IMG/VR virus record: IMGVR_UViG_3300031922_000090
Span: 1 to 64,000 of that record
Source: a virus
Strand: one strand, 5' to 3'
DNA length: 64,000 bases
The notes beneath the pieces are model-generated. The model was given only the letters and a program-made list of their open reading frames with translations. It did no database searches and had not been told where the DNA came from. Within the stretch, counting starts at the first letter, position 1. Every line of letters starts with the position of its first letter. The position numbers and the translations under genes were made by a program. Positions 24,054-60,968 of this stretch are shown here, piece after piece.

Positions 24054-24365
24054 CTAAAGAAATCGAACGTCCTTCAGGGAAATCGAAGTCGCAATCCTGT
24101 TTAACATCGACCACCCGAAATGAATCTCCTTCCCGGCCAGCGGTCCGAATTCGATAGGCTCGCCCTTCGGATCCACGAGAGCAAGTTCACCCTGTGCGAA
24201 CGCGACACCAAGTTTCCGCTTTTGCGTCTTCAGGATGAGAGCCAAAGAGTACCTCTCGGAATGCCCGCGATACTGCGGGTAAGCGCTCATTTGCGCTTCG
24301 GCCCGCGCCCGTAAAGAAGCGAGAAGGTCCGCTTTTTCCATTGCGCTGAAGTTGTGCTTTGTCAT
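24054..24365 (-). CDS. hypothetical protein, predicted leaderless mRNA
   Basis: 103-aa ORF. The ATG lies exactly 6 nt after the -10 of the promoter at 24372-24400. Confidence 0.5.
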   Translation of the reverse strand: MTKHNFSAMEKADLLASLRARAEAQMSAYPQYRGHSERYSLALILKTQKRKLGVAFAQGELALVDPKGEPIEFGPLAGKEIHFGWSMLNRIATSISLKDVRFL

Positions 24366-24371
24366 GACTCC

Positions 24372-24400
24372 AGTTTAGCGCTTCCTGAAGAAGCTGTCAA
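24372..24400 (-). promoter_or_regulatory. sigma70-type promoter TTGACA-N17-TAAACT with GCTTC..GAAGC spacer palindrome
   Basis: The minus strand reads TTGACAGCTTCTTCAGGAAGCGCTAAACT, then GGAGTC, then ATG. Confidence 0.6.
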
Positions 24401-24457
24401 TAATTCTTTCAACTTTTTTTACGGACAACGAGACAGTGCCGGAGATACTGGTCATTC

Positions 24458-24802
24458 CTATCGAGCATAACTTCGTACCCGCGCGATCTCCGGCAGATCG
24501 GCTCCAAGCTGAAAGGCTGCGCAGCGGGCATCCTCCGCTTGCTCATCCGAAAGCCATGCCGATAGATGGTTCATCGCCTCGGAACACAGCGCATGAACGC
24601 TATTCTGCATTGCCTTGTAGACAATTTCGGCCAGAAGGTTCATAACCGGATGCAGGCGCTCGGGGTGCGCCCGAAGCAGCCACCAGAGCCTCCACGCGGG
24701 ATGTGGGCAGGTAGCCCACGCCTCCGGCGCATAGCAACGGTGTGCCCAAGTCACCATCGACTCAGGAGCCCCGGCGTAGTGAAAGTAAGCTGCCAAACTC
24801 AT
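24458..24802 (-). CDS. hypothetical Trp-rich protein (weak paralog of 44036..44560)
   Basis: 114 aa. EAWATCPHPAWRLWWLL resembles SAWRECSRPDWMLGW in the 44-kb gene. Confidence 0.45.
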   Translation of the reverse strand: MSLAAYFHYAGAPESMVTWAHRCYAPEAWATCPHPAWRLWWLLRAHPERLHPVMNLLAEIVYKAMQNSVHALCSEAMNHLSAWLSDEQAEDARCAAFQLGADLPEIARVRSYAR

Positions 24803-24820
24803 GTTCCTGTCCTTTCCTGT

Positions 24821-25321
24821 TCAAAACGTCTTCTTCAAAAACTCGGTAGCTCCCTGCGCTCCGAAAACTTCTTCAATCTCGGCGTGCCACTCAGCGAGAG
24901 TCCAGTTGCCCGTCTGAAGAAAACGGACAGTGGCCGTATTCCGGAAAAACCAGCCATCGGCGGATTGCCCGACACAGGACGGACGGCCCGTAAGGCGGTT
25001 TGCCTCCGGTAAGGGATGCGTTTCTCCGGCCCGGCAAGCCTGAATCGCAACCCGGAGAAAGCGCTCCCAAGCTACGGCAGAAAACTTCCAGAACACTCCG
25101 GATTCTTCCACGTAAACAGGCAGAATCGAACGGGTTCCGATGCGGTTATCCCCGTCCATTCGTTTTTTCCGGTCGGCGGACTCGAACCCGGCTTGAATCC
25201 AATCATTCACCATCGCGTACTTCGGCAGTACCGCAATCTCGTCGAAGCGAAGGCCGCAACGGGAAGAACTGGAGCCCACGTTGTGCCAGTGGGTTTTGTT
25301 GGACATCAGCGTCGTTTTCAT
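24821..25321 (-). CDS. hypothetical protein
   Basis: 166-aa ORF with promoter 25340-25368 and a GAGGA SD. Confidence 0.5.
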   Translation of the reverse strand: MKTTLMSNKTHWHNVGSSSSRCGLRFDEIAVLPKYAMVNDWIQAGFESADRKKRMDGDNRIGTRSILPVYVEESGVFWKFSAVAWERFLRVAIQACRAGETHPLPEANRLTGRPSCVGQSADGWFFRNTATVRFLQTGNWTLAEWHAEIEEVFGAQGATEFLKKTF

Positions 25322-25339
25322 TTTCTCGTCCTCAATTAA

Positions 25340-25368
25340 AGAGTAGCAGTTCCGGAGGAAGTTGTCAA
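25340..25368 (-). promoter_or_regulatory. sigma70-type promoter TTGACA-N17-TACTCT with TTCC-TCC-GGAA spacer palindrome
   Basis: The minus strand reads AAACCTCTTGACAACTTCCTCCGGAACTGCTACTCT. 26 nt are identical to the promoter at 25861-25889. Confidence 0.6.
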
Positions 25369-25378
25369 GAGGTTTCTT

Positions 25379-25420
25379 AAAAAAATCGCGTCCCCCGAGG
25401 TGAGCGGGTTACCCCGCTCA
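25379..25420 (-). terminator. terminator-like hairpin plus T7 tract
   Basis: TGAGCGGG-GTAA-CCCGCTCA is an 8-bp stem right after the stop of 25426..25854. The T7 run is 15 nt further on, so spacing is atypical. Confidence 0.4.
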
Positions 25421-25425
25421 GCCTG

Positions 25426-25854
25426 CTACTTAACCTCCGTAATCGTGACGTTGCGGAAGCCTTTCGACACAATCTCGTCCCGAAACGCAATCGCAAGATC
25501 CAATCGAGACCTCCACCCATGGACCCGCCCCTGCCCGGTTTCCTCCTCCTTGGCATACGTCGCGGCAACAGTCTGGTAACACTTCTCGATTGCTTTGTGT
25601 ACCTCGGGAAAGCGCGCGGCCTCCATTTGATACCACTCCAACGATTCACCGTGGCTCGGAACCGGCAACGCTCCGGACGCGATGTCGGCATAGTACTCGT
25701 AGTTCTCTATTTTCCGGGCAAGCTCAAGCTGCCGACGCCTCTCCAGCGTGGCGGCTTCGATGCCCCTTGAAGTGATCACGTACTTGTACTCACGGCTCGT
25801 CCGGCGTGAGAAAGTGCCATTCGGCGTCGAAACGGTCAGTTTGATTGTCTTCAT
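25426..25854 (-). CDS. hypothetical protein, predicted leaderless mRNA
   Basis: Start at MKTIKLTV (ATG 25854), 6 nt after the -10 of promoter 25861-25889. The N-terminal extension in the ORF track runs through that promoter. Confidence 0.5.
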   Translation of the reverse strand: MKTIKLTVSTPNGTFSRRTSREYKYVITSRGIEAATLERRRQLELARKIENYEYYADIASGALPVPSHGESLEWYQMEAARFPEVHKAIEKCYQTVAATYAKEEETGQGRVHGWRSRLDLAIAFRDEIVSKGFRNVTITEVK

Positions 25855-25860
25855 GCGATC

Positions 25861-25889
25861 AGTGTACCTCTTCCGGAGGAAGTTGTCAA
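25861..25889 (-). promoter_or_regulatory. sigma70-type promoter TTGACA-N17-TACACT with CTTCC-TCC-GGAAG spacer palindrome
   Basis: The minus strand reads TTGACAACTTCCTCCGGAAGAGGTACACT, then GATCGC, then ATG. Confidence 0.6.
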
Positions 25890-26156
25890 GAGGTTTCCTA
25901 AGAAAATTTCGTCCCGTACCCGGCAGGTAAGCCGGGACGGGAGAAGAGGAGAGCGATACGGGAGAGGCGCTCAAGCGCGATGTCGAGGCAGGAAGCCAGT
26001 TCACCGTCAGCAACTTCCAGTGAAGAAACGTTGTTTTCCGGCTCCGGGAAGATCCGGAAAAAAGCAGTGTCGGCTTTGTGGACTGAGGGGCGGATGAGCA
26101 CAAAGAAAAAACGATACTGCTCACCGTCGGTTAGCTGGTAGGGTTTCCATGCTTCT

Positions 26157-26186
26157 AGTATCCTACGCTCCGGAGGAACTTGTAAA
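26157..26186 (-). promoter_or_regulatory. weaker member of the same promoter family (TTTACA-N18-GATACT)
   Basis: The minus strand reads TTTACAAGTTCCTCCGGAGCGTAGGATACT, then AGAAGC, then ATG. That ATG opens only 9 codons. Confidence 0.35.
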
Positions 26187-26192
26187 CTAGGT

Positions 26193-27128: not shown

Positions 27129-27593
27129 TTACGAAAACCGATGCAAAGAAACCGAAACCAGAGCTTCCCGGAACATCTCAAAGATGCGCTCCCGTATATC
27201 GTCCGTAAGCCACCCCGAACCAACATAGGCGTCCATAAAATCGCCATCGACGATAACGCGCGCGATTCCTGCTTGTACAATGAGTTTCGTACATTCGAGA
27301 CAGGGAGTCAACGACGTGTACAGGACGCATCCCGCAACAGGCGTACCAACACGCGCGGCGGCAACAATCGCGTTCGCCTCCGCATGGACAACCCGTTTTT
27401 GCTTTTCTCCCGGATTCCACCTTTCGGGCGGAGTATCCGGGATGCGGCGCGGGAACCCATTGTACCCGGTTGCCCGGATTTCCCGGTGTTCCGGTCCGAC
27501 AATTATTGCGCCTACCTGAGTATGCGGATCCTTAGAACGGACTGCGATCTCACGCGCGAGGTGTAGAAAATAAGTGTCCCAGTCAGGAACCAT
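27129..27593 (-). CDS. dCMP deaminase (cytidine/deoxycytidylate deaminase family)
   Basis: HAEANAI...TPCLECTKLI zinc-binding motifs (H-A-E, P-C-x2-C), 154 aa. Confidence 0.85.
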   Translation of the reverse strand: MVPDWDTYFLHLAREIAVRSKDPHTQVGAIIVGPEHREIRATGYNGFPRRIPDTPPERWNPGEKQKRVVHAEANAIVAAARVGTPVAGCVLYTSLTPCLECTKLIVQAGIARVIVDGDFMDAYVGSGWLTDDIRERIFEMFREALVSVSLHRFS

Positions 27594-27605
27594 AATTAAG
27601 TCTCC

Positions 27606-27944
27606 TTAAGTTTTCGCCGGAGTTTTCCACAGCTTAAACAACCCGTTGACGTAAAGCTGAAGCGTAAATCCCCCGAACATGAGAGCGAGCCCGTTATCAA
27701 CGGGAAGCGCTTTCACTCCGGCCAGTGCGGCAGCGTGCGCAACAGTCTCAAGATTAGGGGCAGGGATATCATTCCGGAGTTTGCGATTCTCTAGCAATAG
27801 CCGGGTATTCTCCTCTTGCAGATCGTTACGGAATTTCCGGAGATACTCCAGTTCCGCGAAAGCGGCGTGAATGGCCTGAAAAATCTCGTTATCCTGCTCC
27901 GTCTGCATGAGCGTTTTTACACCAGCGATGCCCTTGTAAATCAT
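27606..27944 (-). CDS. hypothetical coiled-coil protein
   Basis: 112-aa ORF. CGTATAAC motif 9 nt upstream of the ATG. Confidence 0.45.
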   Translation of the reverse strand: MIYKGIAGVKTLMQTEQDNEIFQAIHAAFAELEYLRKFRNDLQEENTRLLLENRKLRNDIPAPNLETVAHAAALAGVKALPVDNGLALMFGGFTLQLYVNGLFKLWKTPAKT

Positions 27945-27953
27945 CTCTTCTAC

Positions 27954-27961
27954 GTTATACG
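27954..27961 (-). promoter_or_regulatory. CGTATAAC motif
   Basis: The minus strand reads ATCGTATAACGTAGAAGAG-ATG. Intergenic. Confidence 0.35.
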
Positions 27962-27969
27962 ATGCCCGG

Positions 27970-29513: not shown

Positions 29514-29692
29514 TGCAATTTCTCCGTTTCCGTAGCAAAAATTTCAAGAACCACGATCAACCCCCGTAGCCGGAGAATTATATCGGCGTCGGAGATTTCC
29601 GTGACCGTTTTTGCGCGTTGTTCTGTCAATTTGCGGAGCCTCCGCGCGGCATCCTGGAGGATCTCAACGGACTGTTGGGTTATATCTCGCAT
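29510..29692 (-). CDS. hypothetical small protein
   Basis: 60-aa ORF whose stop overlaps the next gene's ATG. No SD seen. Confidence 0.3.
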   Translation of the reverse strand: MRDITQQSVEILQDAARRLRKLTEQRAKTVTEISDADIILRLRGLIVVLEIFATETEKLQ

Positions 29693-30957: not shown

Positions 30958-30965
30958 GTTATACG
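30958..30965 (-). promoter_or_regulatory. CGTATAAC motif
   Basis: The minus strand reads AGCGTATAACTTATTGTAGGAGAGCT-ATG and overlaps the stop of 30959..31399. Confidence 0.35.
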
Positions 30966-33754: not shown

Positions 33755-33762
33755 GTTATACG
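33755..33762 (-). promoter_or_regulatory. CGTATAAC motif
   Basis: The minus strand reads GTCGTATAACGAAGTAGGAGATACG-ATG. Intergenic, preceded by an 8-bp-stem hairpin GGAGCGGG...CCCGCTCC. Confidence 0.35.
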
Positions 33763-33806: not shown

Positions 33807-34412
33807 TCAGACGGCAACGTGTTGCACACTATCGACGCGAAAACGCCCGAACATCCCGCGTTTCTCAACGCGGAATGAACCGAGCCCGATTGAGAAACCG
33901 GCCTGCTGGAAGTGCTGAATCAATTCGTCCAGCGTGACGAACTCCGGCACGAAATCAACGACAAAGGACATCGACCACTGGTCAAAGCGCGGCCTTGGAA
34001 CGCCGATAGCCTGTCCTTTGGCATTGACGGCACAGCGCACGTCCCGCGTCGGCGGATTCGGCGCTTCGATCACGACGTACTCTTCCGGAAAAACCAGCGT
34101 TCCAGTCAGCTTCTTTCCCATGCCCTTCTTCGCCCCGAACGTGATCGCGGCAGAGATCAGGGCGCGGAACATACCAACAGTCGGGAAGAGGAAACGCTTA
34201 CCCTCCATCCGGACCTTCTCCTCCCATCTCACCAGCGCATCTTTCTTCGTTCCGAGTCCTTCCGCTTTCCGGTTCAAGGACTCGATGATTCGGGGCGGCA
34301 TGGCGTTACACAGCAAGGGAGAGATCCCCGCTATGGTGATACAGACGCGCCGTGAAACGATGGGGTCAATCGTAACCACATCTTTCTCGGCGTTGACGGC
34401 TTTCTTCGGCAT
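33807..34412 (-). CDS. hypothetical protein; possible RAMP-like/RNA-binding fold (unverified)
   Basis: Start at MPKKAVNAEK (ATG 34412, AAGAAAGG SD). Features RVCITIAGISPLLCN, FLFPTVGMFRALISAA and a C-terminal glycine-rich GLGSFRVEKRGMFGRFRV. It is the first gene after the tandem RNA cassettes. Confidence 0.5.
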   Translation of the reverse strand: MPKKAVNAEKDVVTIDPIVSRRVCITIAGISPLLCNAMPPRIIESLNRKAEGLGTKKDALVRWEEKVRMEGKRFLFPTVGMFRALISAAITFGAKKGMGKKLTGTLVFPEEYVVIEAPNPPTRDVRCAVNAKGQAIGVPRPRFDQWSMSFVVDFVPEFVTLDELIQHFQQAGFSIGLGSFRVEKRGMFGRFRVDSVQHVAV

Positions 34413-34516
34413 AAATCTACCTTTCTTGGGAATACTGCGGGAGCCCGGAGGCTCCCGCCATTGCGTTGATTTGCTGTGCAAAGCGACGCGGGGCGAAGCA
34501 TTACACTAACACCACC

Positions 34517-34545
34517 AGCATAGCTCATCTGGAGGAGGAAGTCAA
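34517..34545 (-). promoter_or_regulatory. cassette promoter P1 (TTGACT-N17-TATGCT), drives the leader and CDS 33807..34412
   Basis: The minus strand reads TTGACTTCCTCCTCCAGATGAGCTATGCT. The ~100-nt leader contains hairpin GCGGGAGCC-TCCG-GGCTCCCGC (34437-34458) with no U tract. Confidence 0.55.
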
Positions 34546-34548
34546 CAG

Positions 34549-34583
34549 AAAAAAATGATGCCGGAATCCCGAAGGATTCCGGC
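34549..34583 (-). terminator. intrinsic terminator T1
   Basis: GCCGGAATCC-TTCG-GGATTCCGGC 10-bp stem, then ATCATTTTTTT. Confidence 0.8.
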
Positions 34584-34640
34584 CATTGATTTACTTTACT
34601 CCACAAAGCAATACAGCGCGATACGAGGCATAATCTCAAC
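34549..34640 (-). ncRNA. predicted small RNA 3 (~92 nt), promoter P2 to terminator T1
   Basis: Approximate transcript GGUGGUGUUGAGAUUAUGCCUCGUAUCGCGCUGUAUUGCUUUGUGGAGUAAAGUAAAUCAAUG plus hairpin and U7. Only an 11-codon ATG ORF. Ends are inferred, not measured. Confidence 0.45.
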
Positions 34641-34646
34641 ACCACC

Positions 34647-34675
34647 AGCATAGCTCATCTGGAGGAGGAAGTCAA
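34647..34675 (-). promoter_or_regulatory. cassette promoter P2 (TTGACT-N17-TATGCT)
   Basis: Identical to P1 and lies within the 85-nt repeat. Confidence 0.55.
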
Positions 34676-34678
34676 CAG

Positions 34679-34713
34679 AAAAAAATGATGCCGGAATCCC
34701 GAAGGATTCCGGC
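34679..34713 (-). terminator. intrinsic terminator T2
   Basis: Identical hairpin and U7 tract to T1. Confidence 0.8.
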
Positions 34714-34775
34714 CATTGATTTGAGATGCTGTGCTTCACATTACTACGCCGCACACCACTTTGTCCAACACCAAC
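34679..34775 (-). ncRNA. predicted small RNA 2 (~97 nt), promoter P3 to terminator T2
   Basis: Approximate transcript GAAGAUGUUGGUGUUGGACAAAGUGGUGUGCGGCGUAGUAAUGUGAAGCACAGCAUCUCAAAUCAAUG plus hairpin and U7. The 5' AGAUGUUG can pair with CAGCAUCU. Only a 13-codon ORF. Confidence 0.45.
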
Positions 34776-34781
34776 ATCTTC

Positions 34782-34810
34782 AGCATACCTCATCTGGAAG
34801 AGGAAGTCAA
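34782..34810 (-). promoter_or_regulatory. cassette promoter P3 (TTGACT-N17-TATGCT)
   Basis: The minus strand reads TTGACTTCCTCTTCCAGATGAGGTATGCT. Confidence 0.55.
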
Positions 34811-34813
34811 CAG

Positions 34814-34847
34814 AAAAAATGATGCCGGAGCCCCAGGTGACTCCGGC
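34814..34847 (-). terminator. intrinsic terminator T3
   Basis: GCCGGAGTCACC-TGGGGCTCCGGC hairpin (GCCGGAG/CTCCGGC arms), then ATCATTTTTT. Confidence 0.7.
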
Positions 34848-34914
34848 TATCAGATTACTTTAATGCGCCAAATAGGGAGGCAGGTTACCCTACTGTACGT
34901 GACGGCGCATTAAC
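34814..34914 (-). ncRNA. predicted small RNA 1 (~100 nt), promoter P4 to terminator T3
   Basis: Approximate transcript GAAGGUGUUAAUGCGCCGUCACGUACAGUAGGGUAACCUGCCUCCCUAUUUGGCGCAUUAAAGUAAUCUGAUA plus hairpin and U6. Perfect 10-bp internal stem UUAAUGCGCC/GGCGCAUUAA. Confidence 0.45.
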
Positions 34915-34920
34915 ACCTTC

Positions 34921-34949
34921 AGGATAACCCACCACACCCTGAACGTCAA
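34921..34949 (-). promoter_or_regulatory. cassette promoter P4 (TTGACG-N17-TATCCT)
   Basis: The minus strand reads TTGACGTTCAGGGTGTGGTGGGTTATCCT and starts 9 nt after the DNA methylase stop. Confidence 0.5.
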
Positions 34950-34957
34950 GAACTTTT

Positions 34958-38100: not shown

Positions 38101-38108
38101 GTTATACG
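38101..38108 (-). promoter_or_regulatory. CGTATAAC motif
   Basis: The minus strand reads GTCGTATAACGTAGTTTAAGG... and overlaps the stop of 38102..38947. Confidence 0.35.
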
Positions 38109-42664: not shown

Positions 42665-43018
42665 TCAGTCATCCTCTCCCAACACGAACCGGCCATGACT
42701 GTCTCGGTAGGACATGCCCCCGGCGTAGCGGGAGCCACCCTCACGGCGCTCGATGCTGCAATCGCGGCAGTAACGGTAGCCGGAGCGAACGGCGTCTCCG
42801 CAATCGGGGCAGGTTCCAGACCCGGACCCAGTACCGGACGCGGGAATAATCGAACAAAGCGCGATCTTCCCATCCGTCCACACCACGCGGTCGATGCGCT
42901 CGTTCTTGGCCTCGCCCGAACGCTTCACGACATTGACGGTCTGCCCCGGACGCACTGTGCCCGTAACGCGCACGCCCCAGTCGCCAGAGCGGAGTTTCGT
43001 GTAGGTTGCTGTCTCCAT
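42665..43018 (-). CDS. Zn-ribbon protein, predicted leaderless mRNA
   Basis: CPDCGDAVRSGYRYCRDC. The ATG lies 6 nt after the -10 of promoter 43025-43053. Confidence 0.5.
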   Translation of the reverse strand: METATYTKLRSGDWGVRVTGTVRPGQTVNVVKRSGEAKNERIDRVVWTDGKIALCSIIPASGTGSGSGTCPDCGDAVRSGYRYCRDCSIERREGGSRYAGGMSYRDSHGRFVLGEDD

Positions 43019-43024
43019 GCTTTA

Positions 43025-43053
43025 AGAATAGCGCATCGTGAGGAACCTGTCAA
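43025..43053 (-). promoter_or_regulatory. sigma70-type promoter TTGACA-N17-TATTCT
   Basis: The minus strand reads AAAAAAATTTTTTGAACTTTTCTATTGACAGGTTCCTCACGATGCGCTATTCT, then TAAAGC, then ATG. The spacer motif is degenerate (GTTCCTC). Confidence 0.55.
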
Positions 43054-45332: not shown

Positions 45333-45340
45333 GTTATACG
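45333..45340 (-). promoter_or_regulatory. CGTATAAC motif
   Basis: The minus strand reads TTCGTATAACGGACGTAGGGAG, in the 250-nt low-coding gap 45246-45498. Confidence 0.3.
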
Positions 45341-45892: not shown

Positions 45893-46222
45893 TCAGTCCC
45901 AGTAACGCCCACCGAATATAGCCGGTTTAACACCAGCGGAGCGGTCGAGGTACTCCCGGCGATAACTGGGACATCCCGGAATAAAGATACCCTCATAATG
46001 CGGTAGGGTAAAAAGCCCAAGCAGCTTCCCTAGGGCTACCCGCTCGTCAACATTCATCCTGTGAGTAGCGTTCCGGGCGGTAATCTTGATCCACCCATAA
46101 GCAGTACCCCGCCCTCCAGTAACGGACCAACGGATGCCGATGCCCTGCTCGGCGGAACGCCGCTTGAGATTGTCGTGAATCGTCTGAATCACGGCATTAC
46201 GGTCATAAATTGGGTCACTCAT
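45893..46222 (-). CDS. hypothetical protein, predicted leaderless mRNA
   Basis: 109-aa ORF. The ATG lies 6 nt after the -10 of promoter 46229-46257. Confidence 0.5.
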   Translation of the reverse strand: MSDPIYDRNAVIQTIHDNLKRRSAEQGIGIRWSVTGGRGTAYGWIKITARNATHRMNVDERVALGKLLGLFTLPHYEGIFIPGCPSYRREYLDRSAGVKPAIFGGRYWD

Positions 46223-46228
46223 GCTATC

Positions 46229-46257
46229 AGTTTAAGTCTTCCGGAGGAACTTGTCAA
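46229..46257 (-). promoter_or_regulatory. sigma70-type promoter TTGACA-N17-TAAACT with TTCC-TCC-GGAA spacer palindrome
   Basis: The minus strand reads TTGACAAGTTCCTCCGGAAGACTTAAACT, then GATAGC, then ATG. Confidence 0.6.
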
Positions 46258-47938: not shown

Positions 47939-48949
47939 CTACTTGATCCGTTTTTGCGGCGCGTTCAGGAGCAACGGACGGCGAGACGACTCAACGAATT
48001 TCTGCCGGAAAACACGCGCGGAGTCGACGCGCGTGTAGGTTCCACCCGTAGCCTCGCACGCTTCCTTCAACTTATCCCAGGAATTCGCGTCCTCTACGAG
48101 TTCATTCGGCGAAAGGACGTGAATGAAATCAAGGACGATTCTTGCGTCGAGCAGCCTCGGCACCAAACGAAGAACGTATGCGGCTCCGTGGTCGAGAGCA
48201 TCCGAAACGAAAACAACCTGATTTGCTCCAACAGGAGACGGGTTGCTCTCAACAATCTTGATGACGGCCTCAAGCGCGGCGGTAATGTTCGTATCCCACC
48301 CAGGAGCGGAAAGCCGAGCGATCTGCCTCTTCAAATCGGCAATGCCGCAAGGTTTCCGGTAACGAGGCTCTGTGTCGAACTCCACAATGTGCAGATCGGC
48401 TCCCGGATTCTTCGCAAACCTCTCTTGCACCATCTCACCGAGGTACTGCTGTACGGCCTCGATTTTCGAGAGTCCCAGATAACCCTCAAAATGCTTGATG
48501 CCGAGCTCCTTCACGAGCTCTTGAGCAACAGCCTCGGCTTTCAGCAGTTCATCGTTCGCGTTCTGAAGACGCACCCACAGCAGATCATTTTCGATGTTCT
48601 CTTTGGAAATCTGGTGTGGTACGGTAGCATGGAACGCCGAAAGATCCTCACCATCTTCCGAGATGAAAGCACCCAAGGTGCGCGCTTGCATCGCTGCCAC
48701 CCGGACAGTAGCGTTCTCAATGCGGCGGCGCATGAGTGCAATGTTGGCCGGAGAAAAATCGTAGCTCTCCACGTCCCCCACTGCGAGCAGACGGGATGTC
48801 ATCGAATTCGAGGTATCGATAACATAGATGAGCTTTTTCCCACGGTCGTACACGACCTCAAGCATCTGCTCGGGCGCGGCGGTTACGTTGAATTCATCGT
48901 CCGTCGTAGCGTCGGACGGCTTCTTCCCGAAATTGTCAAGGTCTAACAT
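47939..48949 (-). CDS. von Willebrand factor A (vWA) domain protein
   Basis: MIDAS-type LIYVIDTSNSM (DxSxS). 336 aa. GGAAGGAG SD. Confidence 0.6.
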   Translation of the reverse strand: MLDLDNFGKKPSDATTDDEFNVTAAPEQMLEVVYDRGKKLIYVIDTSNSMTSRLLAVGDVESYDFSPANIALMRRRIENATVRVAAMQARTLGAFISEDGEDLSAFHATVPHQISKENIENDLLWVRLQNANDELLKAEAVAQELVKELGIKHFEGYLGLSKIEAVQQYLGEMVQERFAKNPGADLHIVEFDTEPRYRKPCGIADLKRQIARLSAPGWDTNITAALEAVIKIVESNPSPVGANQVVFVSDALDHGAAYVLRLVPRLLDARIVLDFIHVLSPNELVEDANSWDKLKEACEATGGTYTRVDSARVFRQKFVESSRRPLLLNAPQKRIK

Positions 48950-49000
48950 ATGGCTCCTTCCAGAGATTGAAGAGGGGCAGGAAACCCACCCGCCATCTCA

Positions 49001-49029
49001 ACGATAGCAATTCCGGAGGAAGAATGCAA
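49001..49029 (-). promoter_or_regulatory. promoter-family member TTGCAT-N17-TATCGT with TTCC-TCC-GGAA spacer palindrome
   Basis: The minus strand reads TTGCATTCTTCCTCCGGAATTGCTATCGT. ~50-nt leader to ATG 48949. Confidence 0.45.
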
Positions 49030-49087
49030 TAGTACTTTAGTACTAAAAAGAGCTCGATCTGAAAAAAAAAAGGGGGGGGGGCACCCT

Positions 49088-53172: not shown

Positions 53173-53180
53173 GTTATACG
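53173..53180 (-). promoter_or_regulatory. CGTATAAC motif
   Basis: The minus strand reads GTCGTATAACTTCATTG. It overlaps the clamp-loader stop, 45 nt upstream of ATG 53127 (GGGAGA SD in the leader). Confidence 0.35.
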
Positions 53181-56526: not shown

Positions 56527-56671
56527 GCTATCTCCTATTCAGGCATGAAATTTTTCAGACTCTCGATTTTTCTTCGGAACCACTCCCCGATTACCTCCCG
56601 AAGAAGAAAACGAATTAAGACATATACCACGATGGACTGGAGTGTGAACACCGCAAGATCCGATAGATAGT

Positions 56672-57187
56672 TCATGGCGTTTTTCCGGGATAGCGTTTCT
56701 TCATACGCTCGCGCACTATGCGCACATCCTCAAGTTCCTCCATACGGCCAAGAGAAACCCGGCCAAGATACGCCTCCGCGTTCCGTTGCTCGGAGATAAC
56801 CTTCAACACGTCCCGGCGCTGACGGAAAGCTTCCACTAAGAGTTTGGCAAATTCCTCCTCTTCTTCAGCCCGATGCAGCTTTCCGGCAATCTCGGTAACC
56901 GCTTCATCCTGAAGAATCCGGGACGTGATGTGCGCCTCCGTCAGCTTCTCCCCTAACTCAGCATGTTTCCGGCGAATGCGGAGCCCGAGCGATGCCTTCT
57001 TCGCTTCCAGCATCGATTCATAGATGCGTCTGGAACGCATCTTCTGAACCCGAATCCGGGCAGCTTCTAAAAATAGCTTCGGTTGAACCATGGCGGCTTT
57101 CTCAAGCAGATCCGCATTGATGTCAAGCGCATCGATAAGAAGCGATGCGTCGCTATCTACCGCAAGAATCTTATCCAGAGCAGCCAT
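56672..57187 (-). CDS. hypothetical coiled-coil protein, predicted leaderless mRNA
   Basis: 171-aa ORF. The ATG lies 6 nt after CGTATAAC with no SD. Confidence 0.45.
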   Translation of the reverse strand: MAALDKILAVDSDASLLIDALDINADLLEKAAMVQPKLFLEAARIRVQKMRSRRIYESMLEAKKASLGLRIRRKHAELGEKLTEAHITSRILQDEAVTEIAGKLHRAEEEEEFAKLLVEAFRQRRDVLKVISEQRNAEAYLGRVSLGRMEELEDVRIVRERMKKRYPGKTP

Positions 57188-57193
57188 ACCTAG

Positions 57194-57201
57194 GTTATAC
57201 G
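57194..57201 (-). promoter_or_regulatory. CGTATAAC motif
   Basis: The minus strand reads TAGGCGTATAAC-CTAGGT-ATG. Intergenic after polA. Confidence 0.4.
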
Positions 57202-57202
57202 C

Positions 57203-59896
57203 CTAAACGAAAAATTCCTTTGCCATCTTCGCATCTGTAGCAGCATTCGCTGTAAGCCACCCGGCAAGAAATTCCTCCCGACTTCCCCCAAAGTAATCCT
57301 CCAGAACCCCATACCGGAAGCCAGCGGAACCCTCCGAAACCAGCGGCACCCGGAGGTTCAGATCGAAAACACGCCGGGTATAATCGACGACACCCCCCTC
57401 AAGTAGCGTCTTCGCCTGAACGTAGGCTTCCGGAAGATCCCGGAATTTTACCCGAAAGACGAGAGCGTCGTGTACTTCCATTATCGGAGTTGAGAGTAAA
57501 GGAAATAGGGAAGGAGTCTCATCAAGAATTGCCATTGAACAGAGAAGCAACGTATGGGCTGCCCCCTGAATTGGAGAGTTGATAGCCTGATTCAACGGAT
57601 TAGTTGTGCGGTCTTCATCATAATCGTTACCAATCCGACGCCGAAAACCAAAGATCGTATCAACATACCCATCCCGCTCGGCCTTCGCCCGCATTCGATC
57701 AATGTATGACGCTACGCCCCGGTATCTTGCAAAATAGTCCCTATGAAAACGGGCAGCCTGTTCTTCCGTTGCCTTTATACCCTTGGCTTTAAGGTAATAA
57801 TACAGACCTTTCTCCGAGAGACCGTAGATTAAGCCGAAGTGACAGTTCTTGATAAACGTCCGTGTATCTTTGTCTTTCTTGATGAACTCGAATGACCACG
57901 CCGGGTTAATAGCGTTTCCGACTGCGCAGTGAATATCCAAGCCCGCGTTGAATTGCTCAATCAAAAGAGGATCACCGGAGCATTCCGCCAGCATTCTAAT
58001 CTCGATCTGACTATAATCGAAGGCCAAGAAGAGATCGATTGCAAGAATATCTTCCGGTAATTCCTGCCCGGCTTCCCAAAACAGCACCTCGCACCATTTC
58101 GCATCGGAAACCAAAAGATTCTTCAGGAATGGGGAACCATGGAGATTCTGCATATTAACCACACCGTGTATCCCATCCCTTGTACCACCCGAGCGAAGAC
58201 GGCCCGTAACAGCACCCGTCAAATACCATTTCGTTCTCAGTTCCCCGGAATGCATCCCGGCACTTTCCCGATAACCCCTGAGATAGGTTGAATCCATCTT
58301 TGAGAATTTCCGGTAGTCCAGAACATACTGGGGAAAAGGATGCCCGGTCGCCTGCGCAATAATCGAAAGGGTGCTTTCTTTCGTACTTCGCGGGCTTTCC
58401 TCATTTGCAAACTCACTTGAAACCTCGGGAAGAGTAGGGAGCTTTAATTTATCGTACATTGCCCATGCAATCTCAGTGGGCGCGTTCGGGTTGAGATCAG
58501 GTTTCCCGGCCAGTTGCCGGATCTTGGACGCTAACTCGCTAATCTTATGCGGTATAATCCGTTCCGCCTCCGCTTGATGCTCCATATCCAAAGTAGGCCC
58601 GCGTCTCTCCATCTGAAACAACGTTCGCCCGGCTCCGATATAGACGCGCACCAACGGCGCGGATACCTCATCCCTGTTGTCAACTTCAATCCTTTTAGTC
58701 AGTGCAGCATCGGCTCCGTTATATTTAATAAGCGTCGGCAGTGGGCAGGCAGCGAGCCCCTCCGCGCGTGAATAGAATCCCTGAACAATTTGTTTGTACC
58801 CCGCGTAATGCGGATAGTGAAGCGTCGCTATTGTATCCAGACTATGACTCCGGATGAACGTGTTGGCTAAATAATGCGCGTAAGTTGTGTCGAATGTATA
58901 TCCCCTAACTTGAACTCCCAGAGCTTCCTGAAGATGGATTGTGTCGTAAGACCCGTAGTGAAAAATCTTCTCAATTGTCTCGTCTTCAAGAATTTGTTTA
59001 AGAAGTCTCCGGACCTTGCTTATCTCCTCCTGAGACACCGTATTTTCCGGATGGTCAAGAACGACTACGGCGGCTTCATTCTTTGCCCATGAAAAACCAA
59101 TGACGAGAATCTTAGTCTCCCCATCAATTTTTGCATCCTCAATATCTACAGCTATCCGCTCTCCGGAACTACGCATCTCAGAGATAACCTTCTCAAAAGT
59201 TGCGGCCCGCTTAATTACCCGAATCGGGAGAGCATCTAACCAAGCGTAACGCCCGGAATTTTTAACATGCCATAAAGCAGCCCGAAGACGTTGAGCCCAC
59301 GCTTTATATTTCCGCCCATCTTCACTAAGAGCTTCCACTACTTCCGGAGGATCTAAAACAAAAATCTTAGCGGACAGTTTATCACTCCAGAATATGGGGC
59401 AATCCTTTTTATACTCGCGCCCAAAAAGAGCGGCGGCGGCAACCTGCCCGAAAACAATATGGGTTCCAGCAGCACCCAAATTCAACCTCAGTGCTGTATC
59501 GGTATGTGCCCGGCAGTGCGCTATCTCTTCCTTAGCCGGTTCCCGCTCGATCATATACCCACTGACATCACTTACCGGACGGCAGCGAACTATCGTCTGC
59601 ATATCGAAGTCTTCGCGTGTTAACCCGGCTTGAGACAAATGCCTCCAAAGGAATCTACCCGCACGGCCACTCAAGTACTGCCCCGCTACAATATCTGCCT
59701 TCGTCGGCGAGATACCCCATATCATAGCCGGACGCTTCTTAATCAGATCATGACCGAGAAGCTTACGCCGCTTCTGCAACGGACAACCCTGACACCCATA
59801 ACCAAACTTCCCGAATTTTTTCTTAAGCTGTTTACCCGCTTTGTCGGCCTCCAGCGCACACCCATCACCGATAACCGACAGCCAAAGTTTAGGCAT
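57203..59896 (-). CDS. family A DNA polymerase with N-terminal UDG-family-4-like domain and 3'-5' exonuclease domain
   Basis: N-terminus CQGCPL...GISPTKADIVAGQYLSGRAGRFLW...VRCRP. Exo I IAVDIEDAK. Pol motif A DYSQIEIRMLA, motif B RTFIKNCHFGLIYG, motif C MEVHDALVF. Start at ATG 59896 (ATGA overlap). Confidence 0.9.
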   Translation of the reverse strand: MPKLWLSVIGDGCALEADKAGKQLKKKFGKFGYGCQGCPLQKRRKLLGHDLIKKRPAMIWGISPTKADIVAGQYLSGRAGRFLWRHLSQAGLTREDFDMQTIVRCRPVSDVSGYMIEREPAKEEIAHCRAHTDTALRLNLGAAGTHIVFGQVAAAALFGREYKKDCPIFWSDKLSAKIFVLDPPEVVEALSEDGRKYKAWAQRLRAALWHVKNSGRYAWLDALPIRVIKRAATFEKVISEMRSSGERIAVDIEDAKIDGETKILVIGFSWAKNEAAVVVLDHPENTVSQEEISKVRRLLKQILEDETIEKIFHYGSYDTIHLQEALGVQVRGYTFDTTYAHYLANTFIRSHSLDTIATLHYPHYAGYKQIVQGFYSRAEGLAACPLPTLIKYNGADAALTKRIEVDNRDEVSAPLVRVYIGAGRTLFQMERRGPTLDMEHQAEAERIIPHKISELASKIRQLAGKPDLNPNAPTEIAWAMYDKLKLPTLPEVSSEFANEESPRSTKESTLSIIAQATGHPFPQYVLDYRKFSKMDSTYLRGYRESAGMHSGELRTKWYLTGAVTGRLRSGGTRDGIHGVVNMQNLHGSPFLKNLLVSDAKWCEVLFWEAGQELPEDILAIDLFLAFDYSQIEIRMLAECSGDPLLIEQFNAGLDIHCAVGNAINPAWSFEFIKKDKDTRTFIKNCHFGLIYGLSEKGLYYYLKAKGIKATEEQAARFHRDYFARYRGVASYIDRMRAKAERDGYVDTIFGFRRRIGNDYDEDRTTNPLNQAINSPIQGAAHTLLLCSMAILDETPSLFPLLSTPIMEVHDALVFRVKFRDLPEAYVQAKTLLEGGVVDYTRRVFDLNLRVPLVSEGSAGFRYGVLEDYFGGSREEFLAGWLTANAATDAKMAKEFFV

Positions 59897-60954
59897 CAGG
59901 CAGACCTCGGAGAAATAAGAATCCGGGTACTCCCATCGGTAAAACGATAAGGCCCTCCCGGCTCCCAAGCGATAGCGATATCCTCTGCTTTCGATTCAGC
60001 CACAAAAGGCCGAATCGAAGGCAACAGAAAACTCTCGGCAAGATCACCTGACAACGGTCGTAAAGCCGGTACTTTCTCGATAAATGTTGCCGAATCGGAA
60101 ACAGAACTCAAGCGGACCACCGTCTCGCCTTTCAGCCCGGTTACGTTAGCAACGGCGATATCAGCCCCAAGCTTCGCCAAACGGTCGATAGCGCCAAGAA
60201 ACTCCTCCCGCGACAGCCTAACCTTAGTCTTCCACTGCTTAGCGGCATCGAACATCGCTGAAAGTTTGGCAAGCGGAAATTTTAGAGCGTCCTCACTGGA
60301 AAGATGCAACAGCCACCCGTTAGCCGAGAGAAAACGAACCCCATAAGCAGAAATGTTAAGACAATCGCCTGCGGACAATAGCGGTACAAACTTTGGCGGT
60401 ATGCCGACATCAGCGTCAAGAGTATCTCCAAAAGAAGCCTGAAAGGCCGAGAGACGATTTGTCGCCATAACTACCTTTCCCGATTTGAAAATGTGGACAA
60501 GAGATAGTCCCGGAATCTCCGCGTCCTCAGTGCAATACTTCGACGCAATACATAAGGCGGAACATAACTCGGAAGAGATAGGAATTTTAACTTCCTGAAG
60601 ATCGGGAGGAAGGGTGCCATAACCAGTCGGCGATATCGCTGGAAACGTAAACTTGGCTTCCCGGCGTCCCCCTTTTATACGCACCTCGGTATCCGTTTTC
60701 AGGATGCGCAACGCTAAATCCCCGAAACCCTTACCGAGAAAGGTACGAAGCGGTTTACGCGCGATAAACGCAGTCCAGACTGTTGAGTCCGTCTCAGCAG
60801 CGATTCTCACCTCCCCTAGAAAATCGCCTGCCAGCGCTAAGGACACCTCACCCCGGCCTGATTTTACCCGGAAAAATTCGGATGAAAGGCTCTTCTTCCC
60901 GATCACATCGAGAAATTCGATACCCGTTAGAAAATCTGCGGCGGCAATGCGCAT
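59896..60954 (-). CDS. sliding clamp (DNA pol III beta-like), predicted leaderless mRNA
   Basis: 352 aa, the right size for a three-domain beta clamp. Located between the sigma/Cys-rich genes and polA, with a clamp loader nearby. The ATG lies 6 nt after CGTATAAC with no SD. Identity by context only. Confidence 0.45.
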   Translation of the reverse strand: MRIAAADFLTGIEFLDVIGKKSLSSEFFRVKSGRGEVSLALAGDFLGEVRIAAETDSTVWTAFIARKPLRTFLGKGFGDLALRILKTDTEVRIKGGRREAKFTFPAISPTGYGTLPPDLQEVKIPISSELCSALCIASKYCTEDAEIPGLSLVHIFKSGKVVMATNRLSAFQASFGDTLDADVGIPPKFVPLLSAGDCLNISAYGVRFLSANGWLLHLSSEDALKFPLAKLSAMFDAAKQWKTKVRLSREEFLGAIDRLAKLGADIAVANVTGLKGETVVRLSSVSDSATFIEKVPALRPLSGDLAESFLLPSIRPFVAESKAEDIAIAWEPGGPYRFTDGSTRILISPRSA

Positions 60955-60960
60955 ACCAAA

Positions 60961-60968
60961 GTTATACG
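60961..60968 (-). promoter_or_regulatory. CGTATAAC motif
   Basis: The minus strand reads GGCGTATAAC-TTTGGT-ATG and overlaps the stop of 60962..61534. Confidence 0.4.

What the first reader, a model, noticed from the sequence alone, without database searches (positions are those of the whole stretch)
24363..60968. Start codons placed exactly 6 nt after a -10 element: systematic leaderless mRNAs
For four TTGACA-class promoters the annotated ATG follows the -10 hexamer after exactly 6 nt. They are TAAACT-GGAGTC-ATG at 24365, TACACT-GATCGC-ATG at 25854, TATTCT-TAAAGC-ATG at 43018 and TAAACT-GATAGC-ATG at 46222. The weak promoter at 26157 has the same spacing, GATACT-AGAAGC-ATG. Two CGTATAAC sites repeat it: TATAAC-TTTGGT-ATG at 60954 and TATAAC-CTAGGT-ATG at 57187. 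Two more have 9 nt (27944, 21887). None of these genes has a usable SD. Genes in the same families with longer leaders all carry GGAG-type SDs (23106, 25321, 48949, 30941, 33739, 53127). A TSS 7 nt after the -10 would make the A of the ATG the +1 nucleotide. So the phage seems to mix SD-led and leaderless translation in a patterned way, which also says something about the host translation apparatus.
Basis: partly seen in the sequence, partly recalled or inferred. Interest (0 to 1): 0.65.

Follow-up and report, generated by a model that had tools for sequence, protein, structure and literature searches.

The report
Leaderless early genes in a phage
In this uncultured tailed phage and its relatives, about half of the early promoters sit so close to the first gene that the mRNA should begin at the AUG itself; this is a clean new example of a known way of starting translation, not a new mechanism.

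Summary
All genes lie on the minus strand. Four near-consensus promoters (TTGACA-N17-TAnnnT) end exactly 6 nt before the first ATG of ORFs of 103-142 aa (24365, 25854, 43018, 46222). This composite pattern occurs 4 times in the window and 0 times in 100 shuffles. Two CGTATAAC sites have the same 6-nt spacing (60954, 57187) and two have 9 nt (27944, 21887). The 'weak promoter' item is wrong: its ATG is at 26150 and opens only 9 codons.

Relatives from metagenomes show the same rule. In an unbiased scan over all spacings, k=6 is the one dominant peak on the coding strand. A hold-out set of three further contigs reproduced it. Twenty N6 genes in six phages all have C at -1. They also have A/C-rich, unstructured first codons, no SD and an ATG start. 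Leadered promoters of the same family carry SDs.

Class A genes are therefore very probably leaderless mRNAs made by host primary-sigma RNA polymerase. Class B (CGTATAAC, with no -35 element) is less certain. 'Systematic' is an overstatement: only 4-8 of about 98 genes are affected and about 80% have an SD. The host is unknown. This is a new member of a known kind, of moderate interest.

The parts
46220..46257 (-). Class A promoter with N6-ATG: -35 TTGACA 46252-46257, -10 TAAACT 46229-46234, ATG 46220-46222. A hairpin plus T-run terminator lies immediately upstream.
45893..46222 (-). Predicted leaderless gene, 109 aa, ORFan.
43016..43053 (-). Class A promoter with N6-ATG: TTGACA-N17-TATTCT-taaagc-ATG.
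42665..43018 (-). Predicted leaderless gene, 117 aa, zinc-ribbon-like (DUF7577 hit just below threshold).
25852..25889 (-). Class A promoter with N6-ATG: TTGACA-N17-TACACT-gatcgc-ATG. A hairpin with a weak, interrupted T tract lies upstream.
25426..25854 (-). Predicted leaderless gene, 142 aa. The upstream in-frame extension to GTG 26124 does not score as coding.
24363..24400 (-). Class A promoter with N6-ATG: TTGACA-N17-TAAACT-ggagtc-ATG.
24054..24365 (-). Predicted leaderless gene, 103 aa. Its homologue in the sister phage (L006 367-699) has an upstream purine-rich AAAGG(C)AAAGG stretch, read here as an SD.
25319..25368 (-). Class A promoter, leadered: TACTCT plus an 18-nt leader with SD GAGGA, then ATG 25321.
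23104..23156 (-). Class A promoter, leadered: TATCCT plus a 21-nt leader with SD GAGAGG, then ATG 23106.
48947..49045 (-). Class A variant: AGTACTAAAGTACTA-TTGCAT-N17-TATCGT plus a 51-nt leader with SD AAGGAG, then ATG 48949 (VWA-domain protein). The upstream element is the same as in the relatives.
26121..26186 (-). Weak promoter TTTACA-N18-GATACT-agaagc-ATG(26150). The ATG opens a 9-codon ORF whose TGA overlaps GTG 26124. Not a confirmed gene start.
60952..60968 (-). Class B site CGTATAAC-tttggt-ATG (6 nt) before a 352-aa clamp-like gene (59896-60954).
57185..57201 (-). Class B site CGTATAAC-ctaggt-ATG (6 nt) before a 171-aa gene (56672-57187).
27942..27961 (-). Class B site CGTATAAC-gtagaagag-ATG (9 nt) before a 112-aa gene (27606-27944).
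21885..21904 (-). Class B site CGTATAAC-agaagatgt-ATG (9 nt) before a 57-aa membrane-protein gene (21714-21887) at the head of the packaging and structural block.
53173..53180 (-). Class B site, leadered: 45 nt with SD GGGAG, then ATG 53127.
45333..45340 (-). Class B site with a long leader.
38101..38108 (-). Class B site, leadered: 21 nt, then ATG 38079.
33755..33762 (-). Class B site, leadered: 15 nt with SD AGGAG, then ATG 33739.
30958..30965 (-). Class B site, leadered: 16 nt with SD AGGAG, then ATG 30941.
61510..62037 (-). Small sigma-like protein (Sigma70_r2, 21.5 bits against a cut-off of 24). Candidate factor for class B sites.
17639..18223 (-). Second small sigma-like protein, directly after the terminase gene (Sigma70_r2, 22.8 bits). 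The orthologues in L007, L008 and L115-L117 have unflagged Sigma70_r2 hits.

Best explanation
The window is most of an uncultured siphovirus-like phage with every gene on the minus strand.

CLASS A. The early region is divided into short transcription units. Each is driven by a strong promoter of the host primary-sigma type: an AT-rich upstream region, TTGACA, a 17-bp spacer and TAnnnT. In about half of these units the -10 hexamer ends exactly 6 bp before the ATG of the first gene. RNA polymerase, which normally starts 7 nt after the -10 hexamer at a purine preceded by a pyrimidine, would then initiate on the A of the ATG; the -1 base is always C. The transcript would have no 5' UTR and no SD. 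It would be translated by the leaderless route, in which a ribosome carrying initiator tRNA recognises a 5'-terminal AUG. A/C-rich, structure-free first codons would assist this. When a promoter of the same family lies further away (18-51 nt after the -10 hexamer), the leader carries a GGAG-type SD and initiation is canonical. Downstream cistrons use an SD or translational coupling.

CLASS B. A second motif class, CGTATAAC, has no -35 element and is probably read with a phage-encoded sigma-like factor. It sits 5-10 nt before some ATGs, which would give leaderless or 1-4 nt-leader mRNAs. At other genes it sits 15-45 nt upstream, with an SD.

SHOWN: the sequence architecture, its statistical excess, its conservation, and the start-codon assignments.
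INFERRED: the position of +1, which polymerase and sigma factor is used, and the mode of ribosome recruitment.
For: CHANCE. The composite pattern occurs 4 times in the window and 0 times in 100 shuffles.

UNBIASED SPACING SCAN. TTGNNN-N17-NANNNT-Nk-ATG was counted over the window plus 7 related loci (190.7 kb). k=6 gave 16 hits on the coding strand and 0 on the opposite strand. The other values of k gave 1-11 hits, and the hits inspected at k=1 and k=4 were mostly intragenic or chance matches.

PROMOTER FAMILY IN RELATIVES. In the sister phage (L006/L010/L011), 8 of 10 promoters have N6-ATG and 2 have 23-24 nt leaders with an SD. L007 has 2 N6 starts and L008 has 2.

HOLD-OUT. In loci L115-L117, fetched after the rule was formulated, k=6 was again the only peak (5 against 0). 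Four of the five are new promoter-adjacent starts.

POOLED SIGNATURE. For 20 N6 genes in 6 phages against 253 other ATG genes:
- C at -1 in 20 of 20 against 70 of 253 (p=5e-11).
- A+C at nt +4 to +18 of 0.79 against 0.57 (p=4e-10).
- MFE of the first 36 nt of -1.3 against -4.6 kcal/mol (p=4e-8).
- All 20 starts are ATG.
Only 1 homologous pair was found among the first 16 proteins, so these features are not inherited by descent.

START CODONS. An in-frame stop lies just upstream and no downstream alternative start has an SD. All proposed frames score as coding. Orthologues align from Met1 for the 352-aa and 171-aa families and, with one 4-residue insertion, the 57-aa family.

TRANSCRIPTION UNITS. 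Terminator-like hairpins followed by T tracts precede promoters 46257, 43053, 25889 and 25368; only the one before 46257 is a textbook intrinsic terminator.

LITERATURE. TANNNT about 12 nt upstream of the start is the established signature of leaderless genes (PMC3160421, PMC12340547). CA-rich sequence after the AUG enhances leaderless translation, and 5' structure inhibits it (PMC9031893).
Against: There are no RNA 5'-end or N-terminal data. The host is unknown, so the rule that transcription starts 7 nt after the -10 hexamer is borrowed from model bacteria.

All genes are co-oriented. Read-through transcripts that place these ATGs internally must also exist wherever the upstream terminators are weak, as at 24400 and 23156.

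Class B spacing is not fixed: it is 5-10 nt at orthologous sites. Class B short-spaced genes lack the A/C-rich, unstructured signature (A+C 0.57, MFE -4.4 kcal/mol, the same as controls).

The sigma-like proteins in the window score just below the Pfam threshold.

One cited case (26150) opens only a 9-codon ORF.

The three L116 cases share promoter and 5' sequence and may be duplicates of one another.
Confidence: 0.78

Rival explanations
1. The promoters are real, but transcription starts a few nucleotides away from the A of the ATG. The mRNAs would then have very short leaders (1-5 nt), or the start would fall inside the ATG. Translation would rely on a general SD-independent mechanism acting on A-rich unstructured RNA, such as S1-assisted binding or 70S scanning, and not on recognition of a 5'-terminal AUG.
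For: Class B sites show variable spacing of 5-10 nt at orthologous genes, so exact coincidence cannot hold for all of them. The A-rich, unstructured start regions also favour SD-independent initiation on leadered mRNAs.
Against: In class A the spacing is invariant at 6 in 20 cases from 6 phages, while the 6-nt sequence itself varies. Position -1 is always C and +1 is always A, which is the preferred initiating context. Promoter-family members do not fall at N5, N7 or N9-N17; 2 fall at N4 and 1 at N8.
Confidence: 0.12
2. The N6-ATG genes are expressed mainly from longer read-through transcripts that start upstream. On this view the tight promoter-to-ATG spacing is a by-product of genome compaction: the promoters are squeezed into minimal intergenic gaps and mainly serve the downstream genes.
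For: All genes are co-oriented. Some class A promoters, at 24400 and 23156, have no convincing upstream terminator.
Against: Compaction would not fix the spacing at exactly 6. It would not impose C at -1 or a distinctive A/C-rich, unstructured 5' coding end. Intergenic gaps at these sites are 57-338 nt, so they are not minimal. As internal cistrons without an SD or translational coupling, these genes would be poorly translated. Leadered members of the same family do have SDs.
Confidence: 0.06
3. This rival concerns class B only. CGTATAAC is not a promoter. It is instead an RNA-level or protein-binding signal, such as a processing site or an operator. The short distance to some ATGs would then reflect regulation of translation and not the position of a transcription start.
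For: Only the 8-mer is conserved; nothing upstream exceeds 0.6 bit. Short-spaced class B genes lack the 5' signature of class A. The distance to the ATG ranges from 5 to 45 nt and beyond.
Against: The motif contains a -10-like TATAAC. It is strongly strand-specific and always intergenic, at the heads of gene blocks. It is conserved at orthologous positions in L001, L006 and L008. The phage clade encodes small sigma-like proteins. Promoters that consist only of a -10 element and are read by small phage sigma factors have a precedent in T4 late promoters (my knowledge).
Confidence: 0.25
4. The pattern is a chance coincidence or an artefact of start-codon annotation.
For: None beyond the single bad case at 26150.
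Against: There were 0 matches in 100 shuffles and 0 hits on the opposite strand at k=6. The hold-out set replicated the result. Start codons are supported by orthologue alignment and codon scoring.
Confidence: 0.01

Closest known systems
Leaderless genes of Deinococcus-Thermus, Actinobacteria and other bacteria, in which the -10 region lies adjacent to the ORF
   Same: A TANNNT hexamer starts about 12 nt before the start codon, which leaves 6 nt between the hexamer and the ATG. There is no SD, and transcription and translation start at the same nucleotide (PMC3160421, PMC12340547).
   Different: Here the pattern is in a phage genome and comes with a full consensus -35 element and an UP-like region. 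It is restricted to early transcription units, whereas in D. radiodurans about one third of all genes show it. The host lineage is unknown.
Phage leaderless transcripts: lambda cI from PRM; predicted leaderless PL1/PR2/PL2 in Cluster O mycobacteriophages; Thermus phage phiYS40 middle and late genes
   Same: In each case a phage gene starts at +1 of a host-RNA-polymerase promoter. [quoted passage not shown] Lambda cI is the classical model (cited in PMC9031893). The phiYS40 case is from my memory of Sevostyanova et al. 2007, which I could not open.
   Different: Lambda has a single case. Here 4 of 7-8 early promoters in the window, and 8 of 10 in the sister phage, follow the rule, and it is conserved across at least 6 diverged uncultured phages. 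In phiYS40, as I recall, the leaderless class is middle/late and lacks a -35 element. Here the clearest class is early and has a consensus -35 element.
Enhancement of leaderless translation by CA repeats downstream of the AUG (Martin-Farmer and Janssen 1999, as cited in PMC9031893)
   Same: The first 15 coding nt of the N6 genes are 78% A+C (A 51%, C 27%, U 7%) and essentially unstructured.
   Different: In the literature this is an engineered or model effect in E. coli. Here it appears as a natural signature shared by 20 mostly unrelated genes. It was not tested functionally.
T4-type late promoters (TATAAATA, -10 only) read by the small sigma factor gp55
   Same: Class B is an 8-bp motif containing a -10-like sequence, with no -35 element. 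It is found in a phage that encodes proteins of 175-194 aa with only a region-2-like sigma signature.
   Different: The sequence differs (CGTATAAC). Many sites precede replication genes, so they would be middle and not late promoters. Neither the link between the factor and the motif nor any dependence on a sliding clamp has been tested. The T4 comparison is from my own knowledge.

Membership tests
Bacterial leaderless mRNA | The transcription start coincides with, or lies within about 5 nt of, the A of the start codon. | not testable with these tools
   No RNA data are available. The proxy was tested and met: the -10 hexamer (A at position 2, T at position 6) ends exactly 6 nt before the ATG in 4 window genes and 16 genes in relatives, with C at -1 and A at +1 in 20 of 20.
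Bacterial leaderless mRNA | No Shine-Dalgarno sequence or 5' UTR is available to the ribosome. | tested here: met
   Only 6 nt separate the -10 hexamer from the ATG. The GGAG in 'ggagtc' at 24365 lies upstream of the inferred +1. No downstream alternative start has an SD.
Bacterial leaderless mRNA | The start codon is AUG; GUG and UUG work poorly at a 5' terminus. | tested here: inconclusive
   All 20 class A N6 starts and all class B short-spaced starts are ATG. This test is circular, because the scan pattern required ATG at Nk; GTG and TTG starts at N6 were not scanned for. In the window census 87 of 98 predicted starts are ATG (11 GTG or TTG).
Bacterial leaderless mRNA | The gene is the first cistron of its transcription unit. 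| tested here: met
   Each gene directly follows a promoter. Terminator-like hairpins followed by T tracts lie upstream of 46257, 43053, 25889 and 25368. The evidence is weaker for 24400.
Bacterial leaderless mRNA | The 5' end is unstructured, and often CA-rich, which favours binding of a 5'-terminal AUG. | tested here: met
   Class A: A+C 0.79 against 0.57, and MFE -1.3 against -4.6 kcal/mol. The feature is not met for class B short-spaced genes.
Bacterial leaderless mRNA | Translation initiates by 70S or initiator-tRNA recognition of the 5' AUG. | not testable with these tools
   This needs toeprinting or ribosome profiling.
Primary-sigma (sigma-70 type) promoter | A -35 TTGACA element, a 17 +/- 1 bp spacer and a -10 TAnnnT element. 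| tested here: met
   Six exact TTGACA-N17-TAnnnT sites lie on the coding strand, all intergenic. AT-rich upstream tracts are present.
Primary-sigma (sigma-70 type) promoter | Recognised and transcribed by host RNA polymerase holoenzyme. | not testable with these tools
   The host is unknown. The conserved spacer palindrome and, in the relatives, the GTACTnnnGTACTA upstream element suggest an additional factor.
Phage-sigma-dependent, -10-only promoter (T4 late type) | A short conserved -10-like motif with no -35 element. | tested here: met
   CGTATAAC carries about 2 bits per position across 17 sites. Every upstream column is at or below 0.6 bit.
Phage-sigma-dependent, -10-only promoter (T4 late type) | A phage-encoded sigma-like factor is present. 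| tested here: inconclusive
   Sigma70_r2 scores are 21.5 and 22.8 bits against a cut-off of 24. Among the post-terminase copies (17639-18223 type), the orthologues in L007, L008 and L115-L117 have unflagged precomputed hits. The relatives' copies of the 61510-62037 type are flagged weak.
Phage-sigma-dependent, -10-only promoter (T4 late type) | The motif drives initiation in the presence of that factor. | not testable with these tools
   This needs in vitro transcription or an infection transcriptome.

The most novel reading that the evidence does not exclude
The leaderless design of the early genes may be a host-takeover strategy shared by the whole clade. The phage would place its first-expressed ORFan genes on 5'-AUG mRNAs tuned for leaderless translation (C at -1, A at +1, CA-rich, unstructured). 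This would let them escape, or even exploit, a phage-induced shift of the initiation machinery away from SD-led host mRNAs.

A related layout may be a distinct device. A leaderless mini-ORF of 8-9 codons ends in a TGA that overlaps a GTG start (GTGA). It was seen in the window at 26150 and independently in L007 at 6377. It may load ribosomes at a 5' AUG and hand them to an SD-less downstream start by termination-reinitiation.
Probability: 0.1. Interest if true: 0.65.

Novelty: new member of a known kind. Interest (0 to 1): 0.4.

Why it matters
This finding gives a clean natural set of leaderless genes. It comprises about 20 mostly unrelated genes in at least six diverged uncultured phages. Beside them sit matched SD-led promoters of the same family. 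Together they show which sequence features go with a 5'-terminal AUG: an invariant 6-nt gap, C at -1, and A/C-rich, structure-free first codons.

There are three practical consequences.
1. Gene callers mis-start or miss such genes, and several examples occur in the relatives. A rule of '-10 hexamer, 6 nt, ATG' would improve phage annotation.
2. The pattern marks early transcription units and lets the temporal programme of an uncultured phage be read from sequence.
3. It may narrow the search for the host.

It does not change what is known about translation initiation.

Tried and rejected
SEARCHES FOR CLOSE RELATIVES THAT FOUND NOTHING.
- Megablast of 20 kb against GenBank phages gave no match.
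- The search for related loci in IMG/VR with the DNA polymerase and with SbcCD gave no relatives.

HOST IDENTIFICATION FAILED.
- The window has no tRNA genes and no Rfam hits.
- Scanning bacterial and archaeal genomes for the conserved upstream element gave 30 single hits in unrelated taxa, consistent with chance for 16 specified bases.
- The one locus with 7 copies (L035, a Poribacteria MAG) is an unrelated 84-bp tandem repeat.
- The metagenome scan gave 73 single hits. None carried homologues of the window's proteins, and only L100 and L057 look possibly related.
- The sample accessions appear in no paper in the library.
- The terminase, capsid and polymerase best hits among cultured phages are too distant and too scattered to indicate a host: Gordonia, Methanobacterium, Rhizobium and Bacillus at 24-49% identity.

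REJECTED READINGS.
- The 232-aa ORF 25426-26124 as the real gene. Its N-terminal 90 codons run through a promoter and score as non-coding.
- The peaks at k=1 and k=4 in the spacing scan. They are mostly intragenic chance matches with short ORFs.
- Paralogy as the cause of the shared 5' features. Only one homologous pair was found.
- Reading the 26150 ATG as a normal gene start.

NOT AVAILABLE. The phiYS40 paper could not be opened, so that comparison rests on memory.

Full report
WHAT THE WINDOW IS.
The window has 52.7% G+C, and every sizeable gene lies on the minus strand. Pfam identifies a tape-measure protein, HK97-type capsid, portal, Mu-F-like protein, large terminase, family A DNA polymerase fused to UDG, and SbcCD-like and VWA proteins. 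It is therefore most of a siphovirus-like phage genome; the database places it on a 77.6-kb contig. There is no nucleotide match among 50,697 GenBank phage records. The nearest cultured phages share only 24-49% protein identity and are scattered over unrelated hosts.

CHECKING THE OBSERVATION.
Each has TTGACA, 17 nt, a TAnnnT hexamer, 6 nt and then ATG, at 24365, 25854, 43018 and 46222. The composite pattern occurs 4 times in the window and never in 100 dinucleotide-preserving shuffles.

CGTATAAC occurs 9 times on the coding strand and once on the other, against 0.9 expected. The ATG follows after 6 nt at 60954 and 57187 and after 9 nt at 27944 and 21887.

For 24365, 43018, 46222, 60954, 57187 and 27944 the ATG is the first possible start of its ORF. 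An in-frame stop lies a few to about 50 nt upstream, and none of the downstream in-frame starts has an SD.

One item fails. The 'weak promoter' (TTTACA-N18-GATACT-agaagc) has its ATG at 26150, not 26157, and that ATG opens only nine codons. A codon-usage score trained on 20 long genes of the window puts the coding-like frame of 26150-25898 one base out of register with this ATG. The same score shows that the 90-codon upstream extension of the 25854 ORF is non-coding, so ATG 25854 stands. It also scores every proposed leaderless frame as coding.

COMPARATIVE EVIDENCE.
Protein searches with the polymerase, the VWA protein and the terminase found syntenic metagenomic relatives. I fetched the following:
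- L001, L006, L010 and L011. These come from two contigs of one JGI sample and are probably one 'sister' phage, with 59-65% identity in polymerase and terminase.
- L003 and L004.
- L007.
- L008 and L009.

Their early regions contain a promoter family that shares the window's spacer motif: TTCCTCC, or the palindrome CTCCGGAG / CTTCCGGAAG. In place of the window's AT-rich tract they have an upstream element, GTACTnnnGTACTA, abutting a TTGnnn -35 element. The window has this variant once, at 49029.

In the sister phage, 8 of 10 such promoters end exactly 6 nt before an ATG that opens an ORF of 47-224 aa. The other two have 23-24 nt leaders with an SD. L007 has two N6 starts and L008 has two.

To avoid choosing cases by eye, I counted the generic pattern TTGNNN-N17-NANNNT-Nk-ATG for k = 0-15 over 190.7 kb.
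- k=6 gave 16 hits on the coding strand and 0 on the opposite strand.
- The other values of k gave 1-11 hits. The hits inspected at k=1 and k=4 were mostly intragenic chance matches with short ORFs.

I then fetched three further terminase relatives that I had not yet inspected (L115-L117) as a hold-out set. k=6 was again the only peak (5 against 0). It contributed four new promoter-adjacent starts in two phages, with yet another upstream sequence.

INDEPENDENT SIGNATURES OF A 5'-TERMINAL AUG.
I pooled the 20 class A N6 genes from six phages and compared them with 253 other ATG-initiated genes from the same sequences.
- The base before the ATG is C in 20 of 20 against 70 of 253 (Fisher p = 5e-11). 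This is the pyrimidine(-1)/purine(+1) context preferred for initiation.
- Nucleotides +4 to +18 are 79% A+C against 57% (p = 4e-10). The composition is A 51%, C 27%, G 15% and T 7%.
- The first 36 nt fold at -1.3 against -4.6 kcal/mol (p = 4e-8).

Among the first 16 proteins only one pair is homologous, so these features are convergent and not inherited. The three L116 genes may be duplicates of one another.

CA-rich sequence after the AUG enhances leaderless translation, and 5' structure and added 5' nucleotides inhibit it (PMC9031893). A TANNNT hexamer beginning about 12 nt before the start codon is the accepted genomic signature of leaderless genes in bacteria (PMC3160421, PMC12340547).

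In the window, terminator-like hairpins followed by T tracts lie immediately upstream of promoters 46257, 43053, 25889 and 25368; only the one before 46257 is a textbook intrinsic terminator. These genes probably head their own transcription units.

CLASS B.
CGTATAAC is conserved at orthologous positions in the relatives: before the clamp-like 352-aa gene, the 171-aa gene and the 57-aa gene that heads the packaging block. The distance to the ATG varies, however. Window values of 6, 6 and 9 nt correspond to 7, 10, 7 and 6 nt in L001, L006 and L008.

Orthologues align from Met1 in the 352-aa and 171-aa families and, with a 4-residue insertion in L008, in the 57-aa family, so the start codons are sound. 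Across 17 sites only the 8-mer is conserved and nothing resembling a -35 element appears.

Spacing is bimodal: 5-10 nt without an SD, or at least 15 nt with an SD. The short-spaced genes do not have the A/C-rich, unstructured signature (A+C 0.57, MFE -4.4 kcal/mol).

The clade encodes two small sigma-like proteins. In the window these are 61510-62037 and 17639-18223, with Sigma70_r2 scores of 21.5 and 22.8 bits, just below the cut-off of 24. Orthologues of the post-terminase copy have unflagged precomputed hits, while those of the other copy are flagged weak.

The most economical reading is that class B sites are middle-stage promoters consisting only of a -10 element and read with a phage sigma factor. 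They would give mRNAs with leaders of 0-4 nt. This is an inference, and an RNA-level role for the motif is not excluded.

HOW COMMON IS IT?
A census of about 98 predicted genes in the window gives:
- 62 with a clear SD;
- 16 with a weak SD;
- 6 translationally coupled without an SD;
- 6 with neither;
- 4 class A leaderless;
- 4 class B short-spaced.

Leaderless starts are thus a property of promoter-proximal first cistrons: 4 of 7-8 class A promoters and 4 of 9 class B sites. They are not a property of the genome as a whole. The class A leaderless products are small ORFans, which is typical of early genes.

The initiation mode changes between orthologues. The homologue of gene 24365 in the sister phage appears SD-led. 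The gene at L001 19739 has an N6 promoter where its positional counterpart in the window (47894; homology not tested) has an SD.

HOST.
I could not identify the host. The genome-collection scan for the upstream element returned only scattered single matches compatible with chance. The window has no tRNA genes and no Rfam hits. The sample accessions appear in no paper in the library.

The strong GGAG-type SDs and the consensus sigma-70-type promoters point to a bacterium with canonical signals.

COMPARISON WITH WHAT IS KNOWN, AND VERDICT.
Leaderless phage transcripts are known. Lambda cI is the classical model. Cluster O mycobacteriophages are predicted to have leaderless PL1, PR2 and PL2 transcripts (PMC4351075). 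Thermus phage phiYS40 is a further case from my memory; I could not open that paper. [quoted passage not shown]

This is therefore a new member of a known kind. It is well supported for class A (about 0.8), moderately supported for class B, and not shown for the weak-promoter case. Its value lies in how clean and how widely conserved the pattern is, and in better annotation. Gene callers mis-started L006 2089 (should be 2110), L008 2606 (2603) and L008 3368 (3392), and missed L117 7485 altogether.

Noticed in passing
window 34455-34955, minus strand: Four tandem units are present. Each has a TTGAC(G/T)-N17-TAT(C/G)CT promoter, a variable body of about 60 nt and a conserved strong intrinsic terminator (GCCGGAATCCTTCGGGATTCCGGC plus a T-run). 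The fourth unit runs into the gene starting at 34412. These are candidate phage small RNAs of about 90 nt. There is no Rfam match, and TRF misses the array because the bodies differ.
   Followed up: partly
window class A promoter spacers (e.g. 25871-25883, 46239-46251, 25350-25362); L003 about 19650; L008 about 30 and 2580; L009 about 7085: A conserved palindrome lies between the -35 and -10 elements: CTTCC-N3-GGAAG, CTCCGGAG or CTTCCGGAAG. The sister phage has TCCTCCTCCTGA at the same position. This looks like an operator for a dimeric regulator that could switch the early promoters off.
   Followed up: partly
window 49030-49045; L006, L007, L008, L009 and L010 upstream of the -35 elements: A conserved upstream element, (A/G)GTACTnnnGTACTA, abuts the TTGnnn -35 element in the relatives' early promoters. 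It occurs once in the window. It may be an activator site or an extended promoter element. The window's other early promoters have AT-rich UP-like tracts at this position.
   Followed up: partly
window 26121-26150; L007 6377-6403: Two independent leaderless mini-ORFs of 9 and 8 codons each follow an N6 promoter. In both, the TGA stop overlaps a GTG (GTGA). In L007 that GTG opens a protein-like 62-aa ORF with no SD. This may be termination-reinitiation coupling. In the window an assembly frameshift is an alternative, because the coding-like frame is offset by +1.
   Followed up: partly
window 13568-13577, 12884-12893, 8202-8211 (aCCGATAATAT); variant before the portal gene at about 17640; L006 12018, 16600, 17397; L007 11901, 15481, 17300; L008 12368, 13417: A third motif, CCGATAAT(A/G)T, lies upstream of the portal, scaffold/protease, capsid and tail genes, always with SD-bearing leaders. 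It is a candidate late promoter, possibly read by the sigma-like protein encoded directly after the terminase gene.
   Followed up: partly
window 61510-62037 and 17639-18223: Two small sigma-like proteins of 175 and 194 aa are present, with Sigma70_r2 hits just below threshold. One lies in the replication module and one directly after the large terminase gene. The second position is conserved in L007, L008 and L115-L117.
   Followed up: partly
window about 49050-49075, minus strand: An unusual homopolymer tract, a C-run followed directly by a T-run (ccccccccccc tttttttttt), lies just upstream of the 49029 promoter.
   Followed up: no
window 48996-48945: A 17-codon upstream ORF starts 4 nt after the -10 hexamer of the 49029 promoter and ends in a TAG that overlaps the first codons of the VWA gene (ATATGTTAG). 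L001 18614 has a similar ATG at 4 nt, in frame with its VWA gene.
   Followed up: no
L006 2089 vs 2110; L008 2606 vs 2603; L008 3368 vs 3392; L117 7485: The database gene calls in the relatives mis-place or miss starts that lie 6 nt after a -10 hexamer. One call starts inside the promoter, one uses the second ATG, one uses an upstream TTG, and one 58-aa ORF is not called at all.
   Followed up: yes
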